Part shown: piece after piece, positions 11,481 through 37,094 of the stretch
How the letters are laid out: each line of letters starts with the position of its first letter
Numbering within the stretch: the first letter of the stretch is position 1
Sequence record: PZ495249.1
Length of the DNA: 64,000 nucleotides
DNA from: a phage
Direction: 5' to 3' (one strand)
Notes under the pieces: generated by a model
Told to the model about the DNA's origin: nothing
The model's input: the letters and a program-made list of their open reading frames with translations, nothing else
The model's database searches: none
Made by a program: the position numbers and the translations under genes

Positions 11481-11969
11481 ATGTACAATCTGACCTGGAC
11501 TCAAGCCCAAGAAGCAATGCGTGAAGGTAAACGTGTTAAGAACAGCAACTTCACGGACGAAGAGTTCTTCTATATGGAAGATGGAAAGATCTGGGATGAG
11601 CAGGGCTACCCAATGGCTGGCTGGTATCGTGGCTACGATTGGCAGGAGGCAGGTTGGATGATCCTGGAAGACAACTTCAAACCTTTTGAAGAAGATATCT
11701 CAGAATCTGCCTGGAAAGAAGAAGAGATCCGTCTTACTGGTGCAGAACGCCAGAAGATGAAAGCTGTTATGCTTGGTGAAAACTATTCTGCACTGGAGGA
11801 GAAAGTTCTTGCACTTTACGCAGGGCAAGGTTATGATTTGGAAACTATGGATTGCTACGTTGGTATCACTCCACGATCTCCGACCTTACCTCGTGAAAAG
11901 GAGAACTACAACTTCCGTATCACGAAAGGTCGTGGTCATAACAAATTACAGAAGAGGAAAAAGAAATGA
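11481..11969 (+). CDS. hypothetical protein, N-terminus resembling DUF2829 (Tad2-like) fold
   Basis: track ORF; GAGAGGAG RBS; N-terminal W..A.EAMREGKRV...GW...DW pattern; first gene after rightward promoter. Confidence 0.6.
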   Translation: MYNLTWTQAQEAMREGKRVKNSNFTDEEFFYMEDGKIWDEQGYPMAGWYRGYDWQEAGWMILEDNFKPFEEDISESAWKEEEIRLTGAERQKMKAVMLGENYSALEEKVLALYAGQGYDLETMDCYVGITPRSPTLPREKENYNFRITKGRGHNKLQKRKKK

Positions 11970-12073
11970 TAACATTTCTGTTAGGGTTGGGTATCGGAAC
12001 ACTATTAGGATATATAGCTGTTGTTCTTATCGTTGGAGCAATAGCGGTTTTAATTTTAGATCTATTCAGTTAA
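11966..12073 (+). CDS. small hydrophobic protein (35 aa)
   Basis: hand-called ORF; ATGA start/stop overlap with upstream gene; one predicted helix. Confidence 0.3.
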   Translation: MITFLLGLGIGTLLGYIAVVLIVGAIAVLILDLFS

Positions 12074-12082
12074 GGAGCAGAG

Positions 12083-12256
12083 ATGACTAAATACTACCGG
12101 AACAAACATAACGATCTGATCTACTGGGTCCAGGATGATGTTGTGCTGTGTGACGATGATGATATGTGTGATACCATGCCATCAGCTTTCACTTTAGCCG
12201 AATTTGAGGAAGCACTGCTGGATACTTTTGCGTTTGAAGAAGTGATGGATGTATAA
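12083..12256 (+). CDS. small acidic protein (57 aa)
   Basis: hand-called ORF; AAGGAG RBS. Confidence 0.4.
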   Translation: MTKYYRNKHNDLIYWVQDDVVLCDDDDMCDTMPSAFTLAEFEEALLDTFAFEEVMDV

Positions 12257-12420
12257 TGACTATCTATCAAAATCAGTTTCGTGCTGTCATGCGTAAATAC
12301 GTTGGCAACAAGGGTTACGCCTCTACGGATGGTGGAGTCACTTGGTCTGAAAGCGGTACACCGGAAGAACTGATCAAGAAACTTCCATACTACAAAATTG
12401 TGAATAAAGGAGGAGAGTAA
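12256..12420 (+). CDS. small protein (54 aa)
   Basis: hand-called ORF; TAATG overlap with upstream ORF. Confidence 0.4.
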   Translation: MTIYQNQFRAVMRKYVGNKGYASTDGGVTWSESGTPEELIKKLPYYKIVNKGGE

Positions 12421-12421
12421 A

Positions 12422-12829
12422 ATGAAAAAACAATCTATCTTCAATACTGCTGTGGGTGTCCTCACTATCGCCTTAGCTACGGTTAGTCTTATTGGTTGTG
12501 AACAAGCTGCTGACGTTGCAAGCCGTAACATCGCCACCGCTGGCGATAACTTTGAAGTGTTGCGTTCTATTCACTTCATCAACACCCGTACAGATAAAGA
12601 ACTCATGCGTATCGAAGGTTACTGTGCGAAAGACAACAGTAGCACTGATCGTACACTGATCATCACCTGCCGAGATAAGGCCAACGGTTCCGTGAAGAAG
12701 CACTATATGGGGCTGTCTACCGACACCACCTACTTCATTGAACAAGTGGATGGTGCTCAGGTGAGCGTGGATCACACCCGTGTTATCTTTGCTCCACAAA
12801 CTCTGATCCCAAGTCTGGAAGTACGCTAA
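12422..12829 (+). CDS. lipoprotein (lipobox L-I-G-C)
   Basis: track ORF; signal peptide ending in LIGC; AAGGAGGAG RBS. Confidence 0.65.
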   Translation: MKKQSIFNTAVGVLTIALATVSLIGCEQAADVASRNIATAGDNFEVLRSIHFINTRTDKELMRIEGYCAKDNSSTDRTLIITCRDKANGSVKKHYMGLSTDTTYFIEQVDGAQVSVDHTRVIFAPQTLIPSLEVR

Positions 12830-13176
12830 TGGCTGAACTCACTGTACGTGAAAAGGTGATGAAAGCCGAACTGCAAAACATTGCCTGTGATCTGGGGTTA
12901 GACCACGAGACAGCGGGATTCTTGGACATTGTGAATGCAATCTTTGCATTACAACATCCGTGGATTGATGTTGATGGTATTGACAACATGCCATTTGGTA
13001 ACTGGATTGTCATTATGGCTGATGGTAAACATGGCGTTTGCCAGGTAGTACAAGGTGGTAGCGGTAAGTTTGCAGTGATCAATGGTCACTTCTACTTTGA
13101 CCTGGAACCAGTGGTAGCATACATGCCTATGCCTGAATATATCCCGAAAGGAGGTGTTGAATGTCCTTCTTCTTAG
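12829..13176 (+). CDS. hypothetical protein (115 aa)
   Basis: track ORF; TAATG overlap with upstream gene. Confidence 0.55.
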   Translation: MAELTVREKVMKAELQNIACDLGLDHETAGFLDIVNAIFALQHPWIDVDGIDNMPFGNWIVIMADGKHGVCQVVQGGSGKFAVINGHFYFDLEPVVAYMPMPEYIPKGGVECPSS

Positions 13177-13298
13177 GTATGAACTTGATGTTCATGGTGG
13201 CGTGTAACATTGCCGTTTGGTTGTTCAATAGTCCTGGCTTGGGGCTTGTTTTCTTAGGTTGTCAGGTTGTTTGCTTGTTCTTATCATTCTTGGAGTAG
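13161..13298 (+). CDS. small hydrophobic protein (45 aa)
   Basis: hand-called ORF; GGAGGT RBS; overlaps end of previous gene in another frame. Confidence 0.3.
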   Translation: MSFFLGMNLMFMVACNIAVWLFNSPGLGLVFLGCQVVCLFLSFLE

Positions 13299-13306
13299 GA
13301 GGTTTT

Positions 13307-13738
13307 ATGACAGATATCATTCGCGCTAAATTCGAGGAACTTCACCCGTACAAAGAGGGTAGCAACAAGAGCCTCTACGAATCGCTGTACGCGATCTTCA
13401 AGGAAGGATGGGAAAACGGTAAGTCTTCTCGTGAAAACACGCCAGAGAGCGATACAGGCCGTCGTTATGGCTTCTGCATCCCTGTTATGGAGTTTGAACG
13501 AGGTTGGGGTGCTAAACACGATGGCTACATGGTTGGTTTTACCATCGAAGATATTAAAGCCCGTCAGGAGATTTTTGAAAGAACCAATTCTGACGATTAC
13601 GGCTTGTACTATGCTCGCCCTAATGAATTTACTCCTGTGGAGTTGACAGAAGAGGCAATTGAAGCTTTAATGTTAGCTACCGACAGACACTGTACGATCT
13701 GGTTTGATTATGCAGAACAATTTGCAAAAGGAGAATAA
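13307..13738 (+). CDS. hypothetical protein (143 aa)
   Basis: track ORF 13259..13738 trimmed to Met with AGGAGG RBS. Confidence 0.6.
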   Translation: MTDIIRAKFEELHPYKEGSNKSLYESLYAIFKEGWENGKSSRENTPESDTGRRYGFCIPVMEFERGWGAKHDGYMVGFTIEDIKARQEIFERTNSDDYGLYYARPNEFTPVELTEEAIEALMLATDRHCTIWFDYAEQFAKGE

Positions 13739-13739
13739 C

Positions 13740-14015
13740 ATGCAGAACAACGTCACACCACGCGCTAATATTTCAGATCACATCATCGAAACTGCTGATG
13801 GCAGTTTGTTGTTACTGAAAGATCCTGTTGACTGGAAAGAGGGTGAAACTGTAAGAACAGCATCATCCTCCGTGAAAGGTGTTGACATTCGAGAGTTCTG
13901 TGCTGTATTCTGCAAGGACACAGGCATTCAACAAATTACCTTCGACCAAATGTATCAGATCTGTGAAGTGATGCTGCAAATGGAAGAAGCTGGAAAGGAG
14001 GTATTCCCTAAATGA
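13740..14015 (+). CDS. hypothetical protein (91 aa)
   Basis: track ORF 13704..14015 trimmed to Met with AAAGGAGAA RBS. Confidence 0.55.
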   Translation: MQNNVTPRANISDHIIETADGSLLLLKDPVDWKEGETVRTASSSVKGVDIREFCAVFCKDTGIQQITFDQMYQICEVMLQMEEAGKEVFPK

Positions 14016-14287
14016 GCAAACATCCATACTACCAACTGCTGGCGATGTTACGTAAACAGCGCAACAACATGATCGCAGACTTCCGTCACTTCAAACGGGA
14101 TCGTGTTAACCGTCATTGGATGCCACATAGTGCATTCTCTCATACGGTGACACGCTTCCGTCAGAAGATTAAGGAGATTGACAACCTGATCTTCTACAGT
14201 AAGCTGGCTATCCGTGTATCTCGTGAAACCGGAGTGCAATACCTATACGATCATGAGAACAACCGTATCTACTTTGAACTCCCGTAA
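14012..14287 (+). CDS. hypothetical basic protein (91 aa)
   Basis: track ORF; ATGA overlap. Confidence 0.55.
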   Translation: MSKHPYYQLLAMLRKQRNNMIADFRHFKRDRVNRHWMPHSAFSHTVTRFRQKIKEIDNLIFYSKLAIRVSRETGVQYLYDHENNRIYFELP

Positions 14288-14428
14288 ATAAATGTCACCA
14301 GGGTATTGACTTTCGTTAAAAAGTATGCTACCCTAACCCTGAAAGGTGACGAGCGAAGCGAGTGTGATTTATCTATTCGTTCCTGACACTCGTAGAGTGG
14401 AAGGGACGGATAGCTTAGAGGAGGAAAT

Positions 14429-14695
14429 ATGGATGTAATGACTATGAGATTCATAGTGATCTTCTTGATTATCCTGGTAGGTTTAGTTATTATACCTGCT
14501 GGTTTATGTCTTTGCTGGATGCGTAAGTATGGTGATAATGGTAGATGGTGGATGTTACCTGTATTGTTAGTTTACCTTTACCTATTCTTCAACTATTCTA
14601 ATCTTCTCATGCCTGAGAGATGGACATTGAAGCCAGTGGAAGTGTATCGCTGTGAATGGAAAACTGAATATATACCTAAATACCCTATTGACTAA
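14429..14695 (+). CDS. membrane protein (88 aa)
   Basis: track ORF; GAGGAGGA RBS; two hydrophobic segments. Confidence 0.55.
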   Translation: MDVMTMRFIVIFLIILVGLVIIPAGLCLCWMRKYGDNGRWWMLPVLLVYLYLFFNYSNLLMPERWTLKPVEVYRCEWKTEYIPKYPID

Positions 14696-23895: not shown

Positions 23896-24728
23896 ATATT
23901 TTAAAAATTGCTTTTGATGACAAGCAGCTTGATAAAGAAAAACTGCAAAACGTCTTAGATGCTATTCAAACTGATCACATTTTCTGGGAGAATGCTGATG
24001 AATTTATTCTCTTTTCAAGAGACGGGGAATTCACATGGCTTGAAAAAAGCGGAGATACCATTTCTCTTGGTGGTGGTGCAAATCTACCTGGTGGAGTTGA
24101 GGTGGTTGATTTTGATGTGTGGTACAAAGAGGCTATGAAAACACTTGGAGAAGAAACAATTACCGATAAGAAAGAAGATAAAATTATCGGTATTCCAGAA
24201 GGGTTTATCTATCACGATGGTAAATCTGTCGTAGGTGACAAAGATCGCAAAGTGAAGATCGTAGTTCGCGAGGGGGATGTATTAGATGGTAGGGTGGGAG
24301 AATTCCGTTGGAATCATTACGGCAATGACCGAGATATTGTAGGTTATAGATTCTTGGATGACAAGCCAACACCTGTACGTAACCCTCGTCCACGCTATCG
24401 TAAACGTACTCGTCAGAAGCCAACCGTGGCTAAAACTATCGTCCGTGTACTTTACACCACGCAGCAAGTGTACACGTTTAAAAACGTGCGCAGTGTGCAG
24501 GTGATCGATGGTACGGTGTACATCCAACATGAGCGGGAAGTCACCGAAGGTATTAAAGAGAGCATCGAAACTGAGATCGATGAAAAACTGCTGATGGCTG
24601 TAGTGATCCACGATGTGGGTAATCGCTCAAGCTTCCTGCGTAACATTGACGGCTCCTGGGATTACCAGGCAGAAGATGGTACGGTGATCAATGGCGGTAA
24701 ACAACTCGGTCGAATTTTTAAAAAATAA
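23892..24728 (+). CDS. hypothetical protein (278 aa)
   Basis: track ORF; ATGA overlap. Confidence 0.6.
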   Translation: MNILKIAFDDKQLDKEKLQNVLDAIQTDHIFWENADEFILFSRDGEFTWLEKSGDTISLGGGANLPGGVEVVDFDVWYKEAMKTLGEETITDKKEDKIIGIPEGFIYHDGKSVVGDKDRKVKIVVREGDVLDGRVGEFRWNHYGNDRDIVGYRFLDDKPTPVRNPRPRYRKRTRQKPTVAKTIVRVLYTTQQVYTFKNVRSVQVIDGTVYIQHEREVTEGIKESIETEIDEKLLMAVVIHDVGNRSSFLRNIDGSWDYQAEDGTVINGGKQLGRIFKK

Positions 24729-29342: not shown

Positions 29343-29546
29343 ATGGAGTTTATTGTAGGATTGTTATTTCTGGTGGTCATATTCCTGATTTGCCTGATCC
29401 CAACGTGGTTGCTGATGTTGGCATATAACTACATTGTTGTGCTCGTTGGTCATCCTAACTGGGAAATCCCTGTCACGCTGTTGAGTGTGGTATGTGTCGC
29501 ATTCATTCTGACAGTGATCCGTGGAATATTCCGAGGTCGAAAATGA
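29343..29546 (+). CDS. small membrane protein (67 aa)
   Basis: track ORF; AAGGAGAAAA RBS; two hydrophobic helices. Confidence 0.5.
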   Translation: MEFIVGLLFLVVIFLICLIPTWLLMLAYNYIVVLVGHPNWEIPVTLLSVVCVAFILTVIRGIFRGRK

Positions 29547-29839: not shown

Positions 29840-30820
29840 ATGACTCATTTCGGATTCCCACTGCTGGATATCGCAGTGCTGGTTGGTGTACTGGTACTGT
29901 CAATCGTAGTGGACTTCTTCGGTCATAAGGAGAATAAAGAGATTGGTATTAAAAGTGCGCTGGCATGGTCAGCATTCTGGATTGCCCTGGCGTTTGCGTA
30001 CTACGGTTTTATTTGGGTAGAGTACGGTAAAGAATTTGCTTCCCTCTTCCTAAGCGGGTATGTATTAGAGAAGTCCTTGTCGGTGGATAACCTGATGGTG
30101 TTCATGGCAATCTTTGCAAGTTTCGGTATCAAATCGACACACTTGCAGCATAAGATTCTGCTTTGGGGTATCGCAGGTGCAATCGTCTTCCGTGGTATCT
30201 TTGTAGCAGCAGGTACTGCACTGTTCAACCTTCACTGGTCTGTACAAGTGTTGTTCGGTTTGATTGTCGCATGGTCTGCAATGGCTATCATCAAAGGCGG
30301 TGAGGATGAAGAAGATGTGGATTACTCCAAACACTGGGCTACCCGTTTGGTTGGTAAGATCCTTCCGGTTCATCCGGCTCTTGATGGCGAGAAGTTCATC
30401 ACGATCAAAAACAATATCAAATACGCAACTCCAGCCCTGCTGTGTGTGTTCGTGGTAGAGTTTACTGACGTAATCTTCTCCTTCGACTCTGTACCTGCGG
30501 TGATCGGTGTGACACAAGAACCTCTGCTGGTTTACTCTGCGATGCTGTTCGCAATCCTGGGTTTACGTGCTTTGTTCTTCGTGCTGAGTGTTGCAGTTAA
30601 GTATCTGGTTCACCTGGAGAAAGCAGTGGCGGTGGTCCTGGTGTTTGTTGGTGCTAAACTGATTTACCACCCGTTCGGTGAAACGTTACATGCTAAGTGG
30701 GCGTTCCTGCCACACGATATCTCAGCCAACGTTAGTCTGTATATCGTACTGGGTACTTTGGCACTGGGTGTTCTGGCAAGCCTGGTCTTCCCTGAAAAAG
30801 AAGACGAAGCAACAGCTTAA
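29840..30820 (+). CDS. terC: TerC-family integral membrane protein
   Basis: LEKSLSVDNLMVF and FSFDSVPAVIGVT...AILGLRALFF motifs; about 9 helices; terminator downstream. Confidence 0.85.
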   Translation: MTHFGFPLLDIAVLVGVLVLSIVVDFFGHKENKEIGIKSALAWSAFWIALAFAYYGFIWVEYGKEFASLFLSGYVLEKSLSVDNLMVFMAIFASFGIKSTHLQHKILLWGIAGAIVFRGIFVAAGTALFNLHWSVQVLFGLIVAWSAMAIIKGGEDEEDVDYSKHWATRLVGKILPVHPALDGEKFITIKNNIKYATPALLCVFVVEFTDVIFSFDSVPAVIGVTQEPLLVYSAMLFAILGLRALFFVLSVAVKYLVHLEKAVAVVLVFVGAKLIYHPFGETLHAKWAFLPHDISANVSLYIVLGTLALGVLASLVFPEKEDEATA

Positions 30821-30825
30821 TCAAA

Positions 30826-30850
30826 AGAGCCTCCTTCGGGAGGCTTTTGT
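30826..30850 (+). terminator. rho-independent terminator
   Basis: GCCTCC-TTCG-GGAGGC stem plus TTTT; after terC. Confidence 0.6.
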
Positions 30851-30864
30851 ATAAGGAGAGAGAA

Positions 30865-31062
30865 GTGAAAATCTTAAAAGTGATCTGGATCGTGTTTGAA
30901 AATATTTGTTACGCAATCGGATTTTTATTTTTGTTCACGGTGTTGACAATGGTACTTAACGGAGGTACTATTGAAATCATGAAAGACGGGAAGCAAACAT
31001 ATTGCTACTCGACCGATAAAACTAAATGTGAAATTTCAAGCGAGGAGAACAAACATGACTAA
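30865..31062 (+). CDS. small membrane protein (65 aa), GTG start
   Basis: track ORF 30847..31062 trimmed to GTG preceded by AAGGAGAGAGAA. Confidence 0.45.
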   Translation: MKILKVIWIVFENICYAIGFLFLFTVLTMVLNGGTIEIMKDGKQTYCYSTDKTKCEISSEENKHD

Positions 31063-31618
31063 TATGAAACTGGTACTGGGTGCTGTGATCGTTCTGGGTG
31101 CAAGTATGCTGGCAGGTTGTGATGACGATGTTCCAAAACAAACTCAATACGTCCCTGCTCCTCAGCAGCAGATGGTGGATGAGCAATACGTTAACCAACC
31201 AGCGCCTCAAGTTGTTCAGGCGGCTCCTGCTCCGGTTATCGTTCAAAGCGGCGGTCATGATTCGGGTGTTGGTGATTTTGCCACTGGTATGATCCTGGGT
31301 CACATGATGAGCGGTGGTGGTAACGGTGGTGGTTATAGCAATAACTCCAGCCGTACCACGATCATCAATAACAACACCGTAGCACAGCCTCGTAGTGGTA
31401 GTAGCTATTCCAGCAAGACCACTCGTTATTATAACAACAGCGGTAAGCAGGTGTATCAAACGCAGTCCCGTCCGACTATGAGCACTAACAGCGCATACTC
31501 GGCTAAGAAATCCTACTCCAGCCCAATGAGTAGCTATAGTAAACCATCTCGTAGTTATAGCAGCAGCAAGAGCTTCTCCTCAAGTCGTAGCAGCTTTAGC
31601 TCAAGTCGTCGTCGCTAA
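31055..31618 (+). CDS. lipoprotein with Ser/Tyr-rich C-terminal tail
   Basis: track ORF 31028..31618 trimmed to Met with GAGGAGA RBS; lipobox LAGC. Confidence 0.65.
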   Translation: MTNMKLVLGAVIVLGASMLAGCDDDVPKQTQYVPAPQQQMVDEQYVNQPAPQVVQAAPAPVIVQSGGHDSGVGDFATGMILGHMMSGGGNGGGYSNNSSRTTIINNNTVAQPRSGSSYSSKTTRYYNNSGKQVYQTQSRPTMSTNSAYSAKKSYSSPMSSYSKPSRSYSSSKSFSSSRSSFSSSRRR

Positions 31619-31630
31619 TAAGGAGGCAAT

Positions 31631-31870
31631 ATGTTTAAGAATGCAAAGAAAGGTGATATCGCAGTAATGGTTGACACAGACTTCTCGGCACACGGGGATA
31701 AAGATCAACTGGAAATCGTCCTGGTTGACGAAGACGGTATCTACGTCTACGATCCGAATGACCGACTGCTGTTTCAGCACGAAAGTGGCGTTGAATTCAG
31801 CTTCCTTATTGATTTTGATGGCACATTAGCAGGACGTGAGCCAGCAATTAAAGAAATCATTCCGCAGTAA
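31631..31870 (+). CDS. hypothetical protein (79 aa)
   Basis: track ORF; AAGGAGG RBS. Confidence 0.55.
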   Translation: MFKNAKKGDIAVMVDTDFSAHGDKDQLEIVLVDEDGIYVYDPNDRLLFQHESGVEFSFLIDFDGTLAGREPAIKEIIPQ

Positions 31871-31939
31871 GGTTGACTTTTGCTTAGAGGGATAATAAAG
31901 TCCCTCTCGTCAAGAGAAACCAATAACAAAGGAGAGAAC

Positions 31940-32503
31940 ATGCAACTTATCGTAAATAATGTGTACCACCTGACCGGAGAAGGTTTCGCGGAGAGTGTTC
32001 TGGAAGATAACAGCAATCTTTTCAGACTTGTTCGCATTGAAAACAACGGTGATTGGGTGTTTAAGGGTGTAACAACAGGAACTACTCAATTCTCTGGTGC
32101 TGATATGGTGAAAACTGGTGAAGCCGTTATTACGCCAATGTACCCAGTTCTTCAAACAGAAAAACCAAAACGTGCCAAACGTAAAAAGGGTGAACGAAAC
32201 AAAGCCCCAACTGTAAATAAAGCGACAATTACTTTCACAAGTGGAGAGCAGTATACAGTGAAAGACTTTATTTCCATCGAAGTAACTGCTGAGAAGGTTG
32301 TCTTTATCATGGAAGATAACTGGAAAGATACTGTAAACTACCGTCAAGCAATCACCGTACCTAATGATGATGTTGCGCGTGTCAAAGTCCGTGGTGTTAA
32401 CCATCAATTTGAACTGGATATGTCACTCACCAACTTGGGGACTGTGATCCTCGAAGCTGAGGGTGCAGAAATGTACACATCCTCCATTAACATGACTGTA
32501 TAA
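31940..32503 (+). CDS. hypothetical protein (187 aa)
   Basis: track ORF 31880..32503 trimmed to Met with AAAGGAGAGAA RBS. Confidence 0.6.
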   Translation: MQLIVNNVYHLTGEGFAESVLEDNSNLFRLVRIENNGDWVFKGVTTGTTQFSGADMVKTGEAVITPMYPVLQTEKPKRAKRKKGERNKAPTVNKATITFTSGEQYTVKDFISIEVTAEKVVFIMEDNWKDTVNYRQAITVPNDDVARVKVRGVNHQFELDMSLTNLGTVILEAEGAEMYTSSINMTV

Positions 32504-32513
32504 GGAGAAAGAA

Positions 32514-33617
32514 ATGTCTAAGAGTCCATTCCTGAATGCCGTGAAAGGCAATAAGCATGGTGCAAGTGTTCTGACCACTGTTGATGACAAACGCTCTGCA
32601 CTGGCTCCAAGTGTGCTGGAAGCAAGCCCTGTGTTTGCTCCGGCAGTTGTTAAACCTGTACCTGCTCTTCCTGCAATGAGCCGCAAGGAGATTGATGGAG
32701 TGGGCGCTGAGGCAGGACTAACTCTGCGTAGCCTCAACAGCGAAGTGCTGAAACACCAACGTGGTAATCAAGGCGGGGAGATGAATGAACGCCTCACTGC
32801 CCTGATTAAACAGGCTAAACAGCTTGATCCTTCTTCAATCAAGCAGTCAAAAGGCGTTGGTAAATTCATCAAGAAGATCATGGGGCTGAAAGAAGATCTG
32901 TTTGCTGAGTACGACAACGTTAACAACCGTATTGATGTTCTGGTGAAAGAACTGGAAGGTGATGTACGTAAAGAGGAAGATTCACTTGTCTATCTGGAAA
33001 AACTGAAATCCGCTATTGCTCAGTACGCCATGAGCCTTAACCGTGATGTGGAACTCCTGACGGACACCTACGCAAAAGAGGAAGCACGTTTCTTGAATAC
33101 ACCAGAGGAACAAGTGGAAACTCGTACCGAGATCCGTGATACCCTGGATATTCTGGAGATTCGTATTGCTGACCTTAAAGCACTGCGTCTGCTGTGTGTT
33201 CAGATGGGACCACGAGTGAACAGTATGATCAAGGTTAGCGAGATGCTTATGCGATCTGCTCGTAACATAGTGAACAACGTTATTCCGGCTTACTCTGCAA
33301 ACTTCTCAATGTATATTGAGAGCTTACGCCAGGCAGAAGCTGGTAAAACTCAGGCTAATGTGTTGGATGAATTCAACACTGCAATTCAAATGGGGAGCGA
33401 TTTGGCTGCACAAAACATTATCAATGCTACGGCTCTGTCTAACCGTCAGATTCTGGACATTGAAACCCTGCGTAAAGATCAGGAAAACCTGGTTAAAATG
33501 CTGGAAGAAACCAACCGCATCAATACCGAGGCTCGCGCCGCTCGTATTGATTACATCAACGAGGTTCAATCCCTGGAAGATGGGATGATCCAAAAAGTCA
33601 AATCTGGCTTAGTGTAA
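32514..33617 (+). CDS. TelA-like (toxic anion resistance family) helical protein
   Basis: track ORF; AAGGAGAAAGA RBS; all-helical 367 aa; C-terminal ILDIETLRKDQENL..EETNRIN pattern recalled from TelA/YaaN proteins. Confidence 0.6.
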   Translation: MSKSPFLNAVKGNKHGASVLTTVDDKRSALAPSVLEASPVFAPAVVKPVPALPAMSRKEIDGVGAEAGLTLRSLNSEVLKHQRGNQGGEMNERLTALIKQAKQLDPSSIKQSKGVGKFIKKIMGLKEDLFAEYDNVNNRIDVLVKELEGDVRKEEDSLVYLEKLKSAIAQYAMSLNRDVELLTDTYAKEEARFLNTPEEQVETRTEIRDTLDILEIRIADLKALRLLCVQMGPRVNSMIKVSEMLMRSARNIVNNVIPAYSANFSMYIESLRQAEAGKTQANVLDEFNTAIQMGSDLAAQNIINATALSNRQILDIETLRKDQENLVKMLEETNRINTEARAARIDYINEVQSLEDGMIQKVKSGLV

Positions 33618-33626
33618 GGAGAAAAC

Positions 33627-33833
33627 ATGCGAATTCGTATTTATAAACTGGAAGATGGGTATGTAGCTGTTCGTTATGATGATGAAGAGCAGTTTGCAGG
33701 GAACAGTGATCATATTTTATCTTTCCCTAATCTGGAGCCTGTGTTGGCTGTTGGTCGTGAACTCTATGGTTATGACCAGTGTTCAGCAGAACGCTTTGAT
33801 GAACTTGAGTTGGTCAAGGAGTTTGAGGTATGA
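33627..33833 (+). CDS. hypothetical protein (68 aa)
   Basis: track ORF; AAGGAGAAAAC RBS. Confidence 0.5.
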   Translation: MRIRIYKLEDGYVAVRYDDEEQFAGNSDHILSFPNLEPVLAVGRELYGYDQCSAERFDELELVKEFEV

Positions 33834-34069
33834 AGATTGCTCTCGTAATTGCCGATTGCGGTGATGGTAGCGCCACTATTCGTTTCTTCAAAGATGTTGA
33901 CTTTGCGGAGAAGATCGCTTACCATGATTACTTCTGTGAAGAGTTAGCAATGAGCGAAGGTGGAACAATCATCGAAGTGCCTGATGACTTCAAACCACCC
34001 GCTGGTTGGTCAGATCAAGACTATCGTGAAGAAGTAGAACGTGCAGGGTTGGATTTAGACGATGAGTGA
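33830..34069 (+). CDS. acidic hypothetical protein (79 aa)
   Basis: track ORF; ATGA overlap. Confidence 0.5.
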   Translation: MKIALVIADCGDGSATIRFFKDVDFAEKIAYHDYFCEELAMSEGGTIIEVPDDFKPPAGWSDQDYREEVERAGLDLDDE

Positions 34070-34268
34070 TAAAATTGTCTTGACACGCGAAGAGTTGAAG
34101 ACTATCATTGAAGACGCATTCATAGATGGTTGGAAGCAAGGGCAAGAATCGGATTGGTACGATGCAGAAGACTTTTTGCACTACCACGCCAATCCAGATG
34201 GTTCTGAGGAAGAAACTCAGTCTGAAACAACCATCGCAATCAAAAACTTAATGGAGGAAAAATTATGA
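34062..34268 (+). CDS. hypothetical protein (68 aa)
   Basis: track ORF; overlaps neighbours. Confidence 0.5.
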   Translation: MSDKIVLTREELKTIIEDAFIDGWKQGQESDWYDAEDFLHYHANPDGSEEETQSETTIAIKNLMEEKL

Positions 34269-35059
34269 GCGAGAAAATTAGTCTGGTGAAACGTCAGGAA
34301 CAACTGGTAATCAGCCTGAAAAAGAAAAAGATTGCACAGATCGTACTGCGCGTTGCATCTGCACTGGATATCTCCGGTAGTATGCACAGCCTATATCGTA
34401 ACGGGACTGTTAGCGATTTCGTTGGTAAACTCCTGCCGTTCGGTATGCAGTTTGACGATAACCAGCAGATCGATATGTGGGCGTTCAACAACTACTCTTC
34501 TGAACTGCCGCCAGCTACCGCTGACGTGTACGATGACTATGTAGGTAAATGTATGCGTAACGTATCCATCAATGGTGGCACGAGCTACGCACCAGTTATC
34601 CAGGCGATCTACGACGAATACTTTGGCTCTACGCCAATGAAAACTGTATCTCGTGAAGTTGAGGTACAAGAGCAGCGTCCGGTGAGCGGTTTCTTTGCCA
34701 AACTGACAGGTAAAACTGAAACCGTTACTGTCAAGAAAACGATCACAGAACAAGTACCAGATACCTCTGCGCCTGTGGATACCACACCTGCAATGGTGTT
34801 CTTCCAGACTGATGGTGAGAACAATGACGAATCCGCAGTACGCGCTGTACTGAACCGTAACAAAGGTAAACCTATCTACTGGTTCATGGTTGGTGTTGGT
34901 AATGCTCGCTTTAGCTTCCTGAAAGCTCTGGCAAATGAATACGATAACGTAGCTTTCATCGGCATTGATGACCTGGATCTGTCTGACGAGCAACTCTATG
35001 ACAAACTGCTGTCTGATGAGTTTGGTCAGTGGGTTGAGAAAGTAGGTGCAAAAAACTAA
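34265..35059 (+). CDS. von Willebrand factor A domain protein (TerY-like)
   Basis: MIDAS motif LDISGSM; vWA fold pattern; directly upstream of TerD. Confidence 0.75.
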   Translation: MSEKISLVKRQEQLVISLKKKKIAQIVLRVASALDISGSMHSLYRNGTVSDFVGKLLPFGMQFDDNQQIDMWAFNNYSSELPPATADVYDDYVGKCMRNVSINGGTSYAPVIQAIYDEYFGSTPMKTVSREVEVQEQRPVSGFFAKLTGKTETVTVKKTITEQVPDTSAPVDTTPAMVFFQTDGENNDESAVRAVLNRNKGKPIYWFMVGVGNARFSFLKALANEYDNVAFIGIDDLDLSDEQLYDKLLSDEFGQWVEKVGAKN

Positions 35060-35164
35060 AAATAGTTGTTGACTTACCCGAAGAAATACGTAGAATAGAT
35101 TACATCAAAGGGGAAGAGCGGTTCTTCCCCCCAGTAAATGAAAACAGAAAGAAGGAGAACATAC

Positions 35165-35767
35165 ATGTCTGAGAAAATTTCCCTGAAAAAAGGTTCCACC
35201 GAAAAGATCTCCCTGAAAAAGATCGCACCTCTGCTGAAAGAGATTCGTCTGGAATTCTCCTGGAAATCATCCACTAAACTGGATCTGGACGTAAGCGCAC
35301 TGGTGTGCCGTCATAATGCCTCTGGTAATCCAGAAATGCTGTCTGCCCGTCACCTGGTTTGCTATGCAAACAAAGTTGATCCAGAGCGTTCAACCTTCGC
35401 TGGCGAAGATGTTCGTGATGGTACTGGCAACCTGGAGCAGATCGATGTTACTCTGAGTAAAATCTCCCAGAATGCAGATGAAATTGCATTCGTGATCACC
35501 ATCGACGATGAAACTGGTCAGAAGCGCCTCGGTCATGCCTCCGAAGGTATGCTGAAAATCTTCGACGCAGAACGTAACGTCGAGATCCTGGACTTTGACT
35601 TCCTTGCACCGGAAGTTGCTGGTAACACCATCTGTCACGTAGCTTCGCTGGTTCGCGAAGATGGCGAATGGAAACTGAAAGCCTACGGTGTTGGTAAAGC
35701 AGGTATGGATATCTGTGATGTGGTGGTAGCATTCGGTGGTGACGTCAACTGGTTTGACTGCCCGTAA
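35165..35767 (+). CDS. terD: TerD-domain protein
   Basis: track ORF 35138..35767 trimmed to Met with AGAAGGAGAA RBS; TerD pattern ISLKKG..LDLDVSAL..GEDVRDGTG..EWKLKAYGVG. Confidence 0.8.
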   Translation: MSEKISLKKGSTEKISLKKIAPLLKEIRLEFSWKSSTKLDLDVSALVCRHNASGNPEMLSARHLVCYANKVDPERSTFAGEDVRDGTGNLEQIDVTLSKISQNADEIAFVITIDDETGQKRLGHASEGMLKIFDAERNVEILDFDFLAPEVAGNTICHVASLVREDGEWKLKAYGVGKAGMDICDVVVAFGGDVNWFDCP

Positions 35768-35828: not shown

Positions 35829-36482
35829 ATGAGTGCATTAGAGAAACTGCGTAGCCTGTTCGAAGAAGATTTTGTTATTGATGTGGACTACAACGCAGCT
35901 AAGAGCCGCAAAGCTACAGCTTTATTTCAAGATGTAAGGGATATGGGTATTCATTTCACCGTCTGCGAGAATTTTGAAGATACTTGGATGGGTAAAACTG
36001 GTTTCACAATTGATAACTGGAACTATATGGGTATCAAAGACGGTGACACCGAGATCGATGACTGCGACTGGAGTGATCGTGATCCTCTCGAAGTAGAAGA
36101 GTTTGAAGAGATGGTTAGTGCAGCAATATCGGAATTCCAGTATCTGCAAAGTTTACCATCTTCAACCACTCTTGCAGTAGGTGTAAATACTGCTCCAGTG
36201 GCAATCGTGTTGGGTGATAATCTGGTAGTTAGCGGTGGTGTAGTTGTCGTCAACTATAAAAACGGTAGTTCTTACCACCTGGAACATGACGGTAAAGCTA
36301 CTCTGATCGTCGCAGACAAGGTGGTAGTCACAGAGCGTACTTTCCTGAAAGATGGTCAACCAGCCTACGAGCGTGTGACTGTCAAACTGGAATCTCTGGA
36401 TAATATTCAGAGCGACACCCTCAAGCTCACCGTCCTTGAAGATGGCGCTAAAGTGGACTTCACCACCACTTTCACACTGTAA
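35829..36482 (+). CDS. hypothetical protein (217 aa)
   Basis: track ORF; AGAAGGAGAA RBS; terminator downstream. Confidence 0.6.
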   Translation: MSALEKLRSLFEEDFVIDVDYNAAKSRKATALFQDVRDMGIHFTVCENFEDTWMGKTGFTIDNWNYMGIKDGDTEIDDCDWSDRDPLEVEEFEEMVSAAISEFQYLQSLPSSTTLAVGVNTAPVAIVLGDNLVVSGGVVVVNYKNGSSYHLEHDGKATLIVADKVVVTERTFLKDGQPAYERVTVKLESLDNIQSDTLKLTVLEDGAKVDFTTTFTL

Positions 36483-36488
36483 CATGAG

Positions 36489-36512
36489 AGGGGCGAAAGC
36501 CCCTTTCTCTTG
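36489..36512 (+). terminator. rho-independent terminator
   Basis: AGGGGC-GAAA-GCCCCT stem plus T-rich tail. Confidence 0.55.
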
Positions 36513-36569
36513 CAAAATCCTCCCTCCTGTGATAGAATAATAGTTCGTAAAACAAAAAGGAGGCAAAAT

Positions 36570-37094
36570 TTGCTGATACGAAACTTTGTAACAATTGCGT
36601 TACTATCATTAACTGCTTTTACATTTACACCTGTAATCGGCGTTGCCGAAGCTGCAAACGTAAAGACCGCTAAAGTAGTCCACAAGTGTACAAAGCGAGA
36701 TACGAAAGAAAATCTTTTAGCTTGTGCAATGTACGCAGAGAGCCGTAACCAAGGAAAGAAAGGAATGGCTGCTGTCGGTAATGTTGTTCTGAATCGTGTT
36801 AACGATCCTCAGTTCCCTAAGACCGTCAAAGGTGTTCTCTTCCAACCAGGACAATTCTCATACACGTATAAAGGCGCATTTAATGTCGTCGAAAAGGACA
36901 GATGGCAGGAGGCAAAGCATATTGCTGATCGCTTAATCTACCTTGATAAGAACTTCCCCGAAGCTCGTGATGCAACAGATGTAACGAAAGGGGCTAAGTA
37001 TTTCAAAAAGAAGAATATCCGTACCCATTGGGAGAAGGATATGATCTTGGTGTACCGTTACAAGGAACATCAATTCTATATACCTAAGAGCTAA
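36570..37094 (+). CDS. SleB/CwlJ-family cell-wall hydrolase with N-terminal signal anchor (endolysin candidate), TTG start
   Basis: track ORF 36510..37094 trimmed to TTG 6 nt after AAGGAGG; CAMYAESRNQG...GNVVLNRV...FQPGQFS hydrolase motifs. Confidence 0.7.
   Translation: MLIRNFVTIALLSLTAFTFTPVIGVAEAANVKTAKVVHKCTKRDTKENLLACAMYAESRNQGKKGMAAVGNVVLNRVNDPQFPKTVKGVLFQPGQFSYTYKGAFNVVEKDRWQEAKHIADRLIYLDKNFPEARDATDVTKGAKYFKKKNIRTHWEKDMILVYRYKEHQFYIPKS

What the first reader, a model, noticed from the sequence alone, without database searches (positions are those of the whole stretch)
36570..37094. SleB/CwlJ-type cell-wall hydrolase with a signal-anchor, located in the middle-gene block and starting at TTG
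The protein carries the Hydrolase_2-type motif block (CAMYAESRNQG...NVVLNRV...FQPGQFS) behind a hydrophobic N-terminal segment, and the best start is a TTG six nt after AAGGAGG. It lies far from the structural genes and has no adjacent holin that I could see, suggesting a signal-anchor-release endolysin.
Basis: partly seen in the sequence, partly recalled or inferred. Interest (0 to 1): 0.45.

Follow-up and report, generated by a model that had tools for sequence, protein, structure and literature searches.

The report
Secreted second wall hydrolase of phage
This is a real, intact phage gene for a SleB-type cell-wall-cutting enzyme that is most likely exported by an ordinary cleaved signal peptide; the same gene is already annotated and discussed in close relatives, which also carry a standard T4-type lysis enzyme, so the finding is largely ordinary.

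Summary
Window 36570-37094 (+) encodes a 174-aa protein that starts at TTG, six nt after AAGGAGG. It has a hydrophobic leader and a Pfam Hydrolase_2 (SleB/CwlJ-type) domain, with the family-invariant Glu57 intact.

The window comes from a phi92-like myophage (Stephanstirmvirinae). Its closest relatives are the Klebsiella phages FKP3 and KP13-26 (92% aa) and phi92 gp170 (75%).

The "signal-anchor-release endolysin" reading is not supported:
- The leader looks like a classical Sec signal peptide: basic n-region, invariant Pro21, a c-region with indels, and small residues at -3/-1 (AEA|A) before a conserved mature end.
- Leaders of orthologues and of rV5-like and T5-like homologues are too short or too polar to span a membrane.
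- Complete relatives also encode a soluble T4 e-type lysozyme and Rz/Rz1 spanins. These lie outside this window.

Published work already describes this "second endolysin" and its signal peptide, and reports toxicity on expression in E. coli as data not shown.

Best reading: a Sec-exported, processed periplasmic lytic-transglycosylase-type enzyme that is auxiliary to the main lysis system. It has its own conserved sigma70-like promoter and a conserved weak TTG start. Its physiological role is untested.

Novelty: already known. Interest: low.

The parts
36486..36507 (+). Strong stem-loop (GAGAGGGGC-GAAA-GCCCCUUUCUC) just after the upstream gene's stop codon (TAA 36480-36482). It is probably an intrinsic terminator or insulator for the upstream TerD/217-aa genes.
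   Evidence: RNA fold gives dG -20.2 kcal/mol, z = -5.0 against 200 shuffles. The hairpin is conserved in FKP3, and in phi92 it is kept through compensatory changes (GGGGC/GCCCC to GGGGG/CCCCC). The generic terminator scan did not call it, because the U-run is partly inside the stem.
36510..36538 (+). Sigma70-like promoter candidate: TTGCAA, 17 nt, TG-n-TAGAAT (extended -10).
   Evidence: The scan finds 9/12 matches plus a TG. It is the only TTGCAA-N16-18-TANAAT site in the 64-kb window; 0.2 are expected by chance and 19 of 100 shuffles have at least one, so by itself it is not significant. The CTTGCAAAA and TGnTA[GC]AAT blocks are invariant in window, FKP3 and phi92 although the spacer diverges. 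Function is inferred.
36557..36563 (+). Shine-Dalgarno sequence AAGGAGG, 6 nt upstream of the start codon.
   Evidence: Read directly from the sequence. AGGAGGC is conserved in all 14 orthologous IMG/VR loci examined and in FKP3 and phi92.
36570..37094 (+). CDS for the 174-aa precursor of a secreted SleB-type (Hydrolase_2) peptidoglycan-cleaving enzyme. TTG start, TAA stop.
   Evidence: It is 92% identical to FKP3 XCI78035 and 75% to phi92 gp170. TTG accounts for only 3 of 91 sampled FKP3 start codons, one of them this gene.
36570..36653 (+). Predicted Sec (type I) signal peptide, residues 1-28: n-region MLIR, h-region FVTIALLSLTAFTF, c-region TPVIGVAEA. Predicted cleavage is AEA|ANV. The alternative site VIG|VAEA cannot be excluded.
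   Evidence: The alignment shows invariant P21, c-region indels and A at -1. AlphaFold gives pLDDT below 50 for residues 4-32, with no packing on the domain. Homologues in other phage lineages carry 19-20-aa classical leaders. Cleavage is inferred, not shown.
36654..37091 (+). Predicted mature periplasmic enzyme, residues 29-174. The conserved N-terminus is ANVKTAKVVHKC, and Cys40 and Cys52 are invariant within the clade.
   Evidence: Alignment A1. The two Cys residues are invariant in 25/25 orthologues but not across the wider family.
36738..36740 (+). Codon GAG for Glu57 in the Y-A-E-S-R motif, the putative catalytic general acid.
   Evidence: Glu is present in 173 of 174 aligned family members. 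It aligns with the Glu of the YGESRGE motif in the SleB catalytic domains 4F55 and 4FET.
36750..37079 (+). Pfam Hydrolase_2 (PF07486) domain envelope, residues 61-170. The structural domain begins earlier, at about residue 38.
   Evidence: In the AlphaFold model the core from about residue 40 to 140 has pLDDT mostly 85-96, dipping to 70-79 around residues 91-110 and falling off after 140. The top Foldseek hits are the SleB catalytic domains 4FET and 4F55, with probability 1.00 and TM 0.71-0.74 normalised to the target.

Best explanation
The gene encodes a small secreted muralytic enzyme, a SleB-type (Hydrolase_2) catalytic domain of the kind that acts as a lytic transglycosylase in SleB.

**Proposed mechanism**
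1. The gene is transcribed from its own conserved sigma70-like promoter within the replication ('early/middle') module.
2. It is translated from a conserved weak TTG start behind a strong Shine-Dalgarno sequence.
3. The 174-aa precursor is exported through the Sec translocon.
4. Leader peptidase cleaves it after Ala28 (AEA|A), releasing a soluble 146-aa periplasmic enzyme.
5. This enzyme can reach host peptidoglycan without any holin.

It is the phage's second muralytic enzyme. Complete genomes of relatives carry the canonical lysis set, a soluble T4 e-type lysozyme and Rz/Rz1 spanins, elsewhere and outside this window. Its likeliest role is therefore auxiliary: holin-independent weakening or remodelling of the sacculus during infection, which assists or backs up final lysis.

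**Shown here:** the domain family, the fold, conservation of the catalytic Glu, the leader features, genomic context, start-codon conservation, and co-occurrence with a T4 e-type lysozyme.

**Inferred:** export, cleavage, enzymatic activity on Gram-negative murein, expression timing and physiological role.
For: **Domain and fold**
- Hydrolase_2 scores 78.4 bits against a cutoff of 27.
- Sequence hits to the SleB catalytic domains 4F55 and 4FET have E about 5e-9.
- The AlphaFold core has pLDDT mostly 85-96, and the top Foldseek hits are 4FET/4F55 with TM 0.71-0.74.
- Glu57 is invariant in 173/174 family members; N75, R76, Q95, F96 and H167 are nearly invariant.

**Leader**
- It has a basic n-region, invariant P21, a c-region of variable length and a small residue at -1 before a conserved mature N-terminus. 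The -3 residue is small in the window protein and in the orthologues checked by eye.
- Orthologues P0015 and P0022 and the T5-like homologue have leaders with an apparent insertion energy of +5.4 to +6.1 kcal/mol, so they cannot act as membrane anchors.
- The rV5-like FFH2 leader is MKIKIFAIILSAFLSLPVVA|AP and the T5-like Shivani leader is MKAALLLVAALTFSFSSQA|SH.
- Buttimer et al. 2020 report a predicted signal peptide for the Certrevirus homologue CB7_83 and toxicity on expression in E. coli, the latter as data not shown (PMC7344957).

**A second lysin exists in relatives**
- FKP3 XCI78162 and phi92 gp061 are Phage_lysozyme PF00959 proteins with no leader, about 51% identical to T4/T2 gene e.
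- Rz/Rz1 spanins lie next to the terminase gene.
- 138 phage records hold the lysozyme at 60% identity or more, against 132 for the SleB-like protein.

**Context**
- The gene shares its strand with, and lies upstream of, the primase/helicase and DNA polymerase genes.
- A conserved hairpin and promoter-like site lie upstream.
- TTG is conserved in 17/17 orthologues, against 3/91 TTG starts in an FKP3 sample.
- In FFH2, Shivani and PaP1 the homologue also sits among early or nucleotide-metabolism genes with no membrane-protein neighbour.
Against: - No signal-peptide predictor (SignalP, Phobius) was available. My own rule-based scorer does not separate classical signal peptides from SAR domains.
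- In this particular protein the uncharged stretch is 22 residues. Its apparent insertion energy is +1.7 kcal/mol (+0.9 in phi92), close to the SAR controls at 0.5-0.8. An uncleaved, releasable anchor therefore cannot be excluded from sequence alone.
- The phi92 depositors annotated SignalP 3.0 signal peptides on several genes but not on gp170.
- The phage that the window comes from is not available as a whole genome. The presence of the T4 e-type lysozyme is extrapolated from relatives.
- In Certrevirus a class II holin candidate adjoins the SleB-like gene. That suggests that in some lineages it is part of a true lysis cassette.
- Which of the two enzymes drives lysis has not been tested in any of these phages.
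Confidence: 0.62

Rival explanations
1. SAR (signal-anchor-release) endolysin. The N-terminal segment is not cleaved. It tethers an inactive enzyme to the inner membrane, and the enzyme is released and activated when a pinholin depolarises the membrane.
For: The uncharged N-terminal stretch is 22 residues with marginal apparent insertion energy (+1.7 kcal/mol; +0.9 in phi92), similar to the SAR controls. About half of its residues are Gly, Ala, Ser or Thr. No adjacent holin is needed for export. SAR lysins are common among phages of Gram-negative hosts (PMC8223927).
Against: A canonical AXA cleavage motif with Pro at -8 is conserved in position although the c-region has indels. Orthologues and T5-like homologues have leaders that cannot span a membrane (+5.4 to +6.1 kcal/mol). 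There is no Cys in the leader for P1-type disulfide activation. AlphaFold does not pack the leader onto the domain. A soluble T4 e-type lysozyme is present in relatives. No paper in the library links SAR with SleB-type enzymes.
Confidence: 0.1
2. The principal endolysin, delivered by Sec with a cleaved signal peptide, as in Lys44 of Oenococcus phage fOg44. The enzyme accumulates in the periplasm and stays latent until a holin dissipates the proton-motive force. The T4 e-type lysozyme would then be redundant or serve another purpose.
For: RefSeq and pharokka label this gene 'endolysin'. CR3_087 is said to be 'implicated in host lysis' and CB7_83 to be toxic on expression. In Certrevirus a class II holin candidate adjoins the gene. 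No holin has been identified next to the T4 e-type lysozyme in phi92-like phages, where the neighbouring 47-48-aa protein is highly charged.
Against: The 'endolysin' labels are transferred from PHROG 938, not tested. The gene sits in the replication module behind a sigma70-like promoter rather than with late genes. The T4 e-type lysozyme is conserved across the subfamily, with 138 records at 60% identity or more. Here, and in FKP3, FFH2 and Shivani, no membrane protein adjoins the gene. A conserved weak TTG start argues for a low dose.
Confidence: 0.15
3. Not a lysis protein at all. It is a periplasmic murein-remodelling factor that acts during the infection cycle. Possible uses are trimming or opening the sacculus for envelope-spanning phage structures, altering cell shape or growth, interfering with superinfecting phages, or working with the neighbouring Ter-like envelope module.
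For: The gene recurs in non-late regions of at least three unrelated virulent enterobacterial phage lineages that each have a separate endolysin. The weak start codon is conserved. The gene lies one gene downstream of a TerC/TelA/vWA-TerF/TerD block, in this window and in phi92.
Against: No direct evidence for any such function exists. The neighbours are not conserved between lineages. Toxicity on over-expression fits a plain lytic activity equally well.
Confidence: 0.13

Closest known systems
phi92 gp170 and its orthologues in Stephanstirmvirinae (FKP3 XCI78035, BME3, muut, alia and others), annotated 'putative cell wall hydrolase' or 'endolysin'
   Same: They are orthologues at 75-92% aa identity. 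They share the length, the leader, the TTG start, the upstream hairpin and promoter-like region, and the flanking genes: TerD and a 200-aa protein upstream, small acidic and zinc-finger-like proteins plus glycosyltransferases downstream. The BME3 paper already describes the gene as the second, SleB-homologous endolysin in the replication module.
   Different: Only sequence divergence. The window's phage is not in the phage collection above 92% aa identity for this protein. IMG/VR contigs L010 and L011 are 99% identical.
SleB-like hydrolases of Vequintavirinae (CB7_83, CR3_087, FFH2 gp002, PVP-SE1 gp243) and of T5-like phages (e.g. Shivani gp73, AKFV33 ORF81)
   Same: They have the same one-domain architecture, a Sec-type leader followed by Hydrolase_2. 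They lie outside the lysis cassette in phages that have another endolysin. A signal peptide and toxicity in E. coli are reported for CB7_83.
   Different: Identity is only 35-41%. Their leaders are shorter (19-20 aa) and their Cys positions differ. The start codon is GTG in FFH2 and ATG in the T5-like phage. Certrevirus has an adjoining class II holin candidate that is absent here.
Bacillus SleB, the germination-specific cortex lytic transglycosylase (PDB 4F55, 4FET)
   Same: The catalytic-domain fold and the Y-x-E-S/A-R motif with the catalytic Glu are shared. Sequence E is about 5e-9, and Foldseek gives probability 1.0 and TM 0.71-0.74.
   Different: It is not an orthologue: TIGR02869 scores 61.5 bits against a cutoff of 236.5. 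There is no N-terminal PG_binding_1 domain. The host has no spore cortex and hence no muramic-delta-lactam substrate (established knowledge). The substrate must therefore be ordinary Gram-negative murein.
SAR endolysins (P1 Lyz, phage 21 R) and Sec-secreted endolysin Lys44 (fOg44)
   Same: The muralytic enzyme reaches the wall compartment through the host Sec system without needing a holin channel.
   Different: SAR domains are uncleaved, Gly/Ala-rich and refold into the enzyme, whereas this leader has an AXA site and 16% Gly+Ala. Lys44 and the SAR enzymes are the phage's only endolysin, whereas relatives of this phage also encode a T4 e-type lysozyme. The catalytic families also differ.

Membership tests
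Pfam Hydrolase_2 (PF07486), SleB/CwlJ-type cell wall hydrolase domain | Match to the family HMM above the curated gathering score | tested here: met
   78.4 bits against a cutoff of 27, E=7.2e-22, covering profile positions 2-100 of 100.
Pfam Hydrolase_2 (PF07486), SleB/CwlJ-type cell wall hydrolase domain | SleB catalytic-domain fold | tested here: met
   The AlphaFold2 core has pLDDT mostly 85-96. The top three Foldseek hits are 4FET_B, 4FET_A and 4F55, with E about 4e-5, probability 1.00 and TM (target) 0.71-0.74. The next hit has E above 2.
Pfam Hydrolase_2 (PF07486), SleB/CwlJ-type cell wall hydrolase domain | Conserved catalytic Glu in the Y-x-E-(A/S)-R motif | tested here: met
   Glu57 is present in 173/174 aligned homologues. 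It aligns with the Glu of YGESRGE in 4F55/4FET.
Pfam Hydrolase_2 (PF07486), SleB/CwlJ-type cell wall hydrolase domain | Glycan-strand cleavage (lytic transglycosylase) activity on peptidoglycan | not testable with these tools
   This needs purified enzyme and muropeptide analysis. The only indirect report is toxicity of CB7_83 in E. coli, given as data not shown in PMC7344957.
Spore cortex-lytic enzyme SleB proper (NCBIfam TIGR02869, equivalog) | Score above the equivalog cutoff | tested here: not met
   61.5 bits against a cutoff of 236.5. Only profile positions 76-157 of 201 are matched.
Spore cortex-lytic enzyme SleB proper (NCBIfam TIGR02869, equivalog) | N-terminal peptidoglycan-binding domain (PG_binding_1) ahead of the catalytic domain | tested here: not met
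   Pfam finds only Hydrolase_2. Residues 1-28 are a leader and residues 29-45 a short linker.
SAR (signal-anchor-release) endolysins | N-terminal transmembrane domain of about 20 residues that is weakly hydrophobic and rich in Gly/Ala, allowing spontaneous release | tested here: inconclusive
   The uncharged span is 22 residues and the apparent insertion energy is +1.7 kcal/mol, which is SAR-like. Gly+Ala is only 16%, against 42-53% in the P1 Lyz and R21 controls. Orthologues P0015 and P0022 score about +6 kcal/mol, so they are not membrane-spanning.
SAR (signal-anchor-release) endolysins | No signal-peptidase cleavage; the leader remains part of the mature enzyme | tested here: not met
   This was tested in silico only. 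The A-E-A|A motif with Pro at -8 is conserved in position, and a small -1 residue is present in 25/25 orthologues next to a c-region of variable length. Actual cleavage was not tested.
SAR (signal-anchor-release) endolysins | Serves as the phage's endolysin, usually paired with a pinholin in a lysis cassette | tested here: not met
   No membrane-protein gene lies within about 2 kb on either side. Relatives carry a separate soluble T4 e-type lysozyme plus spanins.
Sec-secreted, signal-peptide-bearing phage muralytic enzymes | Type I signal peptide: basic n-region, h-region of 10-15 residues, helix breaker, small residues at -3/-1 | tested here: met
   The leader is MLIR / FVTIALLSLTAFTF / TPVIGVAEA|A. 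The same architecture appears in orthologues and in rV5-like and T5-like homologues. A signal peptide is reported for CB7_83. No dedicated predictor was available.
Sec-secreted, signal-peptide-bearing phage muralytic enzymes | Demonstrated Sec-dependent export and processing | not testable with these tools
   This requires expression, fractionation and N-terminal analysis.
Canonical holin-dependent soluble endolysins (e.g. T4 E) | Cytoplasmic enzyme with no export signal | tested here: not met
   A hydrophobic leader is present. In relatives the T4 E-type role is filled by another gene outside the window, FKP3 XCI78162 or phi92 gp061 (PF00959).

The most novel reading that the evidence does not exclude
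The Sec-secreted SleB-type enzyme may not be a lysis protein. It could be a deliberately low-dosed periplasmic murein-remodelling factor that acts from early or mid infection. Supporting features are the conserved TTG start and the gene's own sigma70-like promoter. The arrangement has arisen or been kept in at least three unrelated lineages of virulent enterobacterial phages (phi92-like, rV5-like, T5-like), each of which already has a canonical endolysin. Possible functions are preparing the sacculus for spanin action or envelope-spanning assemblies, or cooperating with the adjacent Ter-like (TerC/TelA/vWA/TerD) envelope module.
Probability: 0.2. Interest if true: 0.55.

Novelty: already known. 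Interest (0 to 1): 0.2.

Why it matters
As it stands, little. The gene is a routinely annotated, literature-described 'second endolysin' of phi92-like, rV5-like and T5-like phages, and the SAR reading that made it look unusual is not supported.

Two practical points follow:
- Automated annotation calls this secreted enzyme 'endolysin' and labels the true T4 e-type lysozyme 'baseplate hub subunit and tail lysozyme'. This may mislead anyone mining these genomes for lysins.
- Why several large virulent phages keep a holin-independent, Sec-exported glycan-cleaving enzyme alongside a canonical endolysin is still an open, easily testable question. The strictly conserved weak TTG start suggests that its dose matters.

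Tried and rejected
1. **Rule-based signal-peptide scorer** (-3/-1 rule, h-region hydropathy, n-region charge) applied to 173 homologues. 152 scored as leader-bearing, with a median length of 23. The SAR controls P1 Lyz and R21 also passed, so the scorer cannot separate a signal peptide from SAR. I use it only descriptively.
2. **Mean hydropathy or 'too hydrophobic to be released' as an argument against SAR.** Rejected. The Hessa-type estimate puts this leader (+1.7 kcal/mol) close to the SAR controls. The case against SAR rests on the cleavage motif, the low Gly/Ala content and the non-spanning leaders of orthologues.
3. **Search for the canonical lysis genes inside the window.** tblastn with the FKP3/phi92 lysozyme, its small neighbour, and Rz/Rz1 found nothing. 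Comparison with phi92 and FKP3 shows that those genes lie outside the 64-kb window.
4. **Generic promoter/terminator scan.** Promoter-like sites are not enriched (18 found, 15 +/- 3.6 expected), and the upstream hairpin was not called as a terminator. I kept both features only because they are conserved in FKP3 and phi92.
5. **Lipoprotein reading.** No lipobox Cys is present in the leader.
6. **Virion-associated lysin reading.** The leader, the position outside the structural module, and the absence of the PA5oct SleB-domain protein from virions argue against it.
7. **CR3 genome announcement** (PMC3372181), the source of 'implicated in host lysis'. It is not held in the library.
8. **Cys40-Cys52 distance.** It could not be measured because model coordinates are not exposed to scripts.
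Full report
**1. The observation**

TTG at 36570 is preceded by AAGGAGG (36557-36563) with a 6-nt spacer, and the frame runs to TAA at 37092-37094, giving 174 aa. The protein starts MLIRNFVTIALLSLTAFTFTPVIGVAEAANVK and contains the quoted motifs. Pfam assigns Hydrolase_2 (PF07486) at 78.4 bits against a cutoff of 27, and PHROG 938 ('endolysin') matches at E=4e-22.

The longer reading frame opens at TTG 36510. That codon has no Shine-Dalgarno sequence and lies in a conserved non-coding hairpin/promoter region. TTG-36570 preceded by AGGAGGC is conserved in all 14 orthologous IMG/VR loci examined, down to 56% aa identity, and in FKP3 and phi92. TTG is rare in this phage group: 3 of 91 sampled FKP3 start codons, one of them this gene.

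**2. What the window is**

Megablast and tblastn place the window in Stephanstirmvirinae (phi92-like myophages). The protein is 92% identical to the orthologue in five Klebsiella phage records (FKP3, KP13-26, KP2025 and two records of phi1_175008). It is 75% identical to phi92 gp170 and to the orthologues of many Justusliebigvirus phages. Two IMG/VR contigs carry a 99% identical copy.

Local gene order matches FKP3 and phi92. A TerC/TelA/vWA-TerF/TerD block and a 217-aa protein lie upstream. Three small soluble proteins, glycosyltransferases, a primase/helicase and a DNA polymerase lie downstream on the same strand. By comparison with phi92, the window corresponds roughly to phi92 79-143 kb.

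**3. The enzyme**

Sequence search of the PDB finds only the catalytic domains of B. cereus and B. anthracis SleB (E about 5e-9). An AlphaFold2 model built on 25 orthologues has a confident core, with pLDDT mostly 85-96 for residues about 40-140. Its only significant Foldseek hits are those SleB domains, with probability 1.00 and TM 0.71-0.74 on the target.

In an alignment of 174 family members spanning the whole 50%-clustered library, Glu57 of the Y-A-E-S-R motif is present in 173. R76, N75, Q95, F96 and H167 are nearly invariant. The domain therefore looks catalytically intact.

It is not a SleB orthologue. The NCBIfam equivalog scores 61.5 bits against a cutoff of 236.5, and there is no PG-binding domain.

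**4. The leader: signal peptide or signal anchor?**

In the 25-sequence orthologue alignment the leader has the following features:
- one or more Lys/Arg residues at the start;
- a hydrophobic core;
- an invariant Pro21;
- a short stretch that varies in length and sequence;
- a small -1 residue (Ala in those inspected) before the conserved block (A)NVKTAKVVHKC. Examples are AEA|A, AQAEA|A, ALA|A, VYA|G, SEA|K, VEA|Q and VDA|K.

This is the anatomy of a type I Sec signal peptide.

Homologues in other lineages have even plainer ones. The rV5-like FFH2 leader is MKIKIFAIILSAFLSLPVVA|AP, and the T5-like Shivani leader is MKAALLLVAALTFSFSSQA|SH. Most of the distant representatives look the same.

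A rough Hessa-type insertion estimate gives +1.7 kcal/mol for this protein and +0.9 for phi92. These are marginal values, not far from the SAR controls at 0.5-0.8. Orthologues P0015 and P0022 and the T5-like protein score +5.4 to +6.1, so they cannot be membrane anchors. Gly+Ala content of the segment is 16%, against 42-53% in the SAR controls.

AlphaFold leaves residues 4-32 unstructured and unpacked. Buttimer et al. report a predicted signal peptide for the Certrevirus homologue.

Two caveats apply. My home-made scorer could not separate signal peptides from SAR domains, and no dedicated predictor was available. The phi92 depositors also did not annotate a SignalP 3.0 peptide on gp170. My estimate is about 75-80% for a cleaved signal peptide and about 10% for SAR, with the remainder for a stable anchor.

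**5. Is it the endolysin?**

There is no TM-containing ORF on the + strand between 35.8 and 38.4 kb other than the gene itself.

The complete genomes of relatives show why this is not surprising:
- FKP3 XCI78162 and phi92 gp061 are leaderless Phage_lysozyme (PF00959) proteins, about 51% identical to T4/T2 gene e. They lie next to phoH.
- Rz/Rz1 spanins lie next to the terminase gene.
- None of these genes is in the window.
- The lysozyme is found at 60% identity or more in 138 phage records and the SleB-like protein in 132, which fits co-occurrence across the subfamily.

The literature says the same:
- A Phapecoctavirus has PF00959 plus PF07486.
- Vequintavirinae have the SleB-like protein plus another PG enzyme.
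- T5-like phages have an M15C endolysin next to the holin and a SleB-domain protein far from it. The authors note that it is unknown which enzyme is primarily used.

In FFH2, Shivani and PaP1 the homologue also lies among early or nucleotide-metabolism genes without membrane-protein neighbours. One exception matters: in Certrevirus a 65-aa two-TM class II holin candidate adjoins the gene.

**6. Expression signals**

The 87-nt intergenic region upstream contains three elements:
- a strong hairpin at 36486-36507 (dG -20.2 kcal/mol, z = -5), kept in phi92 through compensatory changes;
- a TTGCAA-17-TGnTAGAAT sigma70-like site at 36510-36538, whose hexamers are invariant in window, FKP3 and phi92;
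- the Shine-Dalgarno sequence.

The promoter match alone is not statistically significant. Its conservation is the evidence. Together with the strand and position, this points to early or middle transcription by host RNA polymerase. The conserved TTG start suggests a limited dose, which fits the reported toxicity of a homologue. These are inferences.

**7. Mechanism proposed**

The steps are low-level synthesis, Sec export, leader-peptidase cleavage (AEA|A), and release of a soluble 146-aa periplasmic glycan-strand-cleaving enzyme that acts on murein independently of any holin. It would be auxiliary to the T4 e-type lysozyme/spanin lysis system.

The rivals are:
- a SAR endolysin;
- a Sec-delivered principal endolysin held latent until depolarisation (Lys44-like);
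- a non-lytic murein-remodelling role.

None of these is excluded experimentally.

**8. Novelty**

The gene family, its signal peptide, its placement away from lysis genes and the 'two endolysins' situation have all been published for close relatives. The window adds another orthologue.

What I did not find in the papers read here are three points: the strict conservation of the TTG start (17/17 orthologues), the conserved hairpin/promoter unit, and the argument from non-spanning orthologue leaders. These are refinements, not a new kind of system.

Noticed in passing
window 29840-35767 (+): A tellurite-resistance-like envelope module lies directly upstream. It comprises TerC (29840-30820, PF03741, E=8e-41), TelA (32514-33617, PF05816), vWA-TerF-like (34265-35059, PF10138) and TerD (35138-35767, PF02342). 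The same block is in phi92 (gp182, gp178, gp173, gp172). What it does in a virulent phage is unexplained.
   Followed up: partly
window 29343-29546 (+): A 67-aa ORF with two strong hydrophobic segments (residues 1-36 and 38-65) lies immediately upstream of TerC. It has the topology of a class II holin-like small membrane protein and no Pfam match. The BME3 paper mentions distant small two-TM holin candidates in this phage group.
   Followed up: partly
window 36570; loci L010-L023, L001, L004: The weak TTG start behind a strong AGGAGGC Shine-Dalgarno sequence is conserved in all 17 orthologues examined, down to 56% aa identity. TTG accounts for only 3 of 91 sampled FKP3 starts. The rV5-like homologue uses GTG. 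This suggests selection for a low dose of a toxic product.
   Followed up: yes
phi92 NC_023693.1 23600-24100 (gp061) and 106125-106634 (gp170): RefSeq labels the leaderless T4 e-type lysozyme gp061 'baseplate hub subunit and tail lysozyme' and the secreted SleB-like gp170 'endolysin'. Both labels look like family-name transfers and are probably the wrong way round functionally.
   Followed up: partly
L009 2324-2884 (Pseudomonas phage PaP1 gp029): The Pakpunavirus Hydrolase_2 homologue has a different N-terminus, METLEALVLSILLAFIGMFLDMEYSRLK. It is a hydrophobic helix flanked by acidic residues with no AXA site, so it may be a genuine anchor or a SAR-type variant of the family.
   Followed up: no
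window 11966-14695 (+), 12422-12829 and 31028-31618 (+): There is a run of small ORFs with strong TM-like segments: 11966-12073, 13161-13298, 13259-13738 and 14429-14695. Two ORFs have lipoprotein-like leaders...LIGC at 12422-12829 and ...LAGC at 31028-31618. Together these suggest a sizeable set of envelope-targeted early proteins.
   Followed up: no
FKP3 PP895363.1 119861-120007; phi92 24113-24256: The small gene next to the T4 e-type lysozyme encodes a 47-48-aa, highly basic or charged protein with no TM segment (MKGKQKRKIFSRALA...). It is therefore not a holin, and the holin of this phage group remains unidentified.
   Followed up: no
window 35829-36482 (+): The 217-aa protein between TerD and the hydrolase gene has no Pfam match. 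It is conserved in FKP3 and phi92 (gp171) and has a Val/Gly-rich hydrophobic patch at residues 122-142.
   Followed up: no
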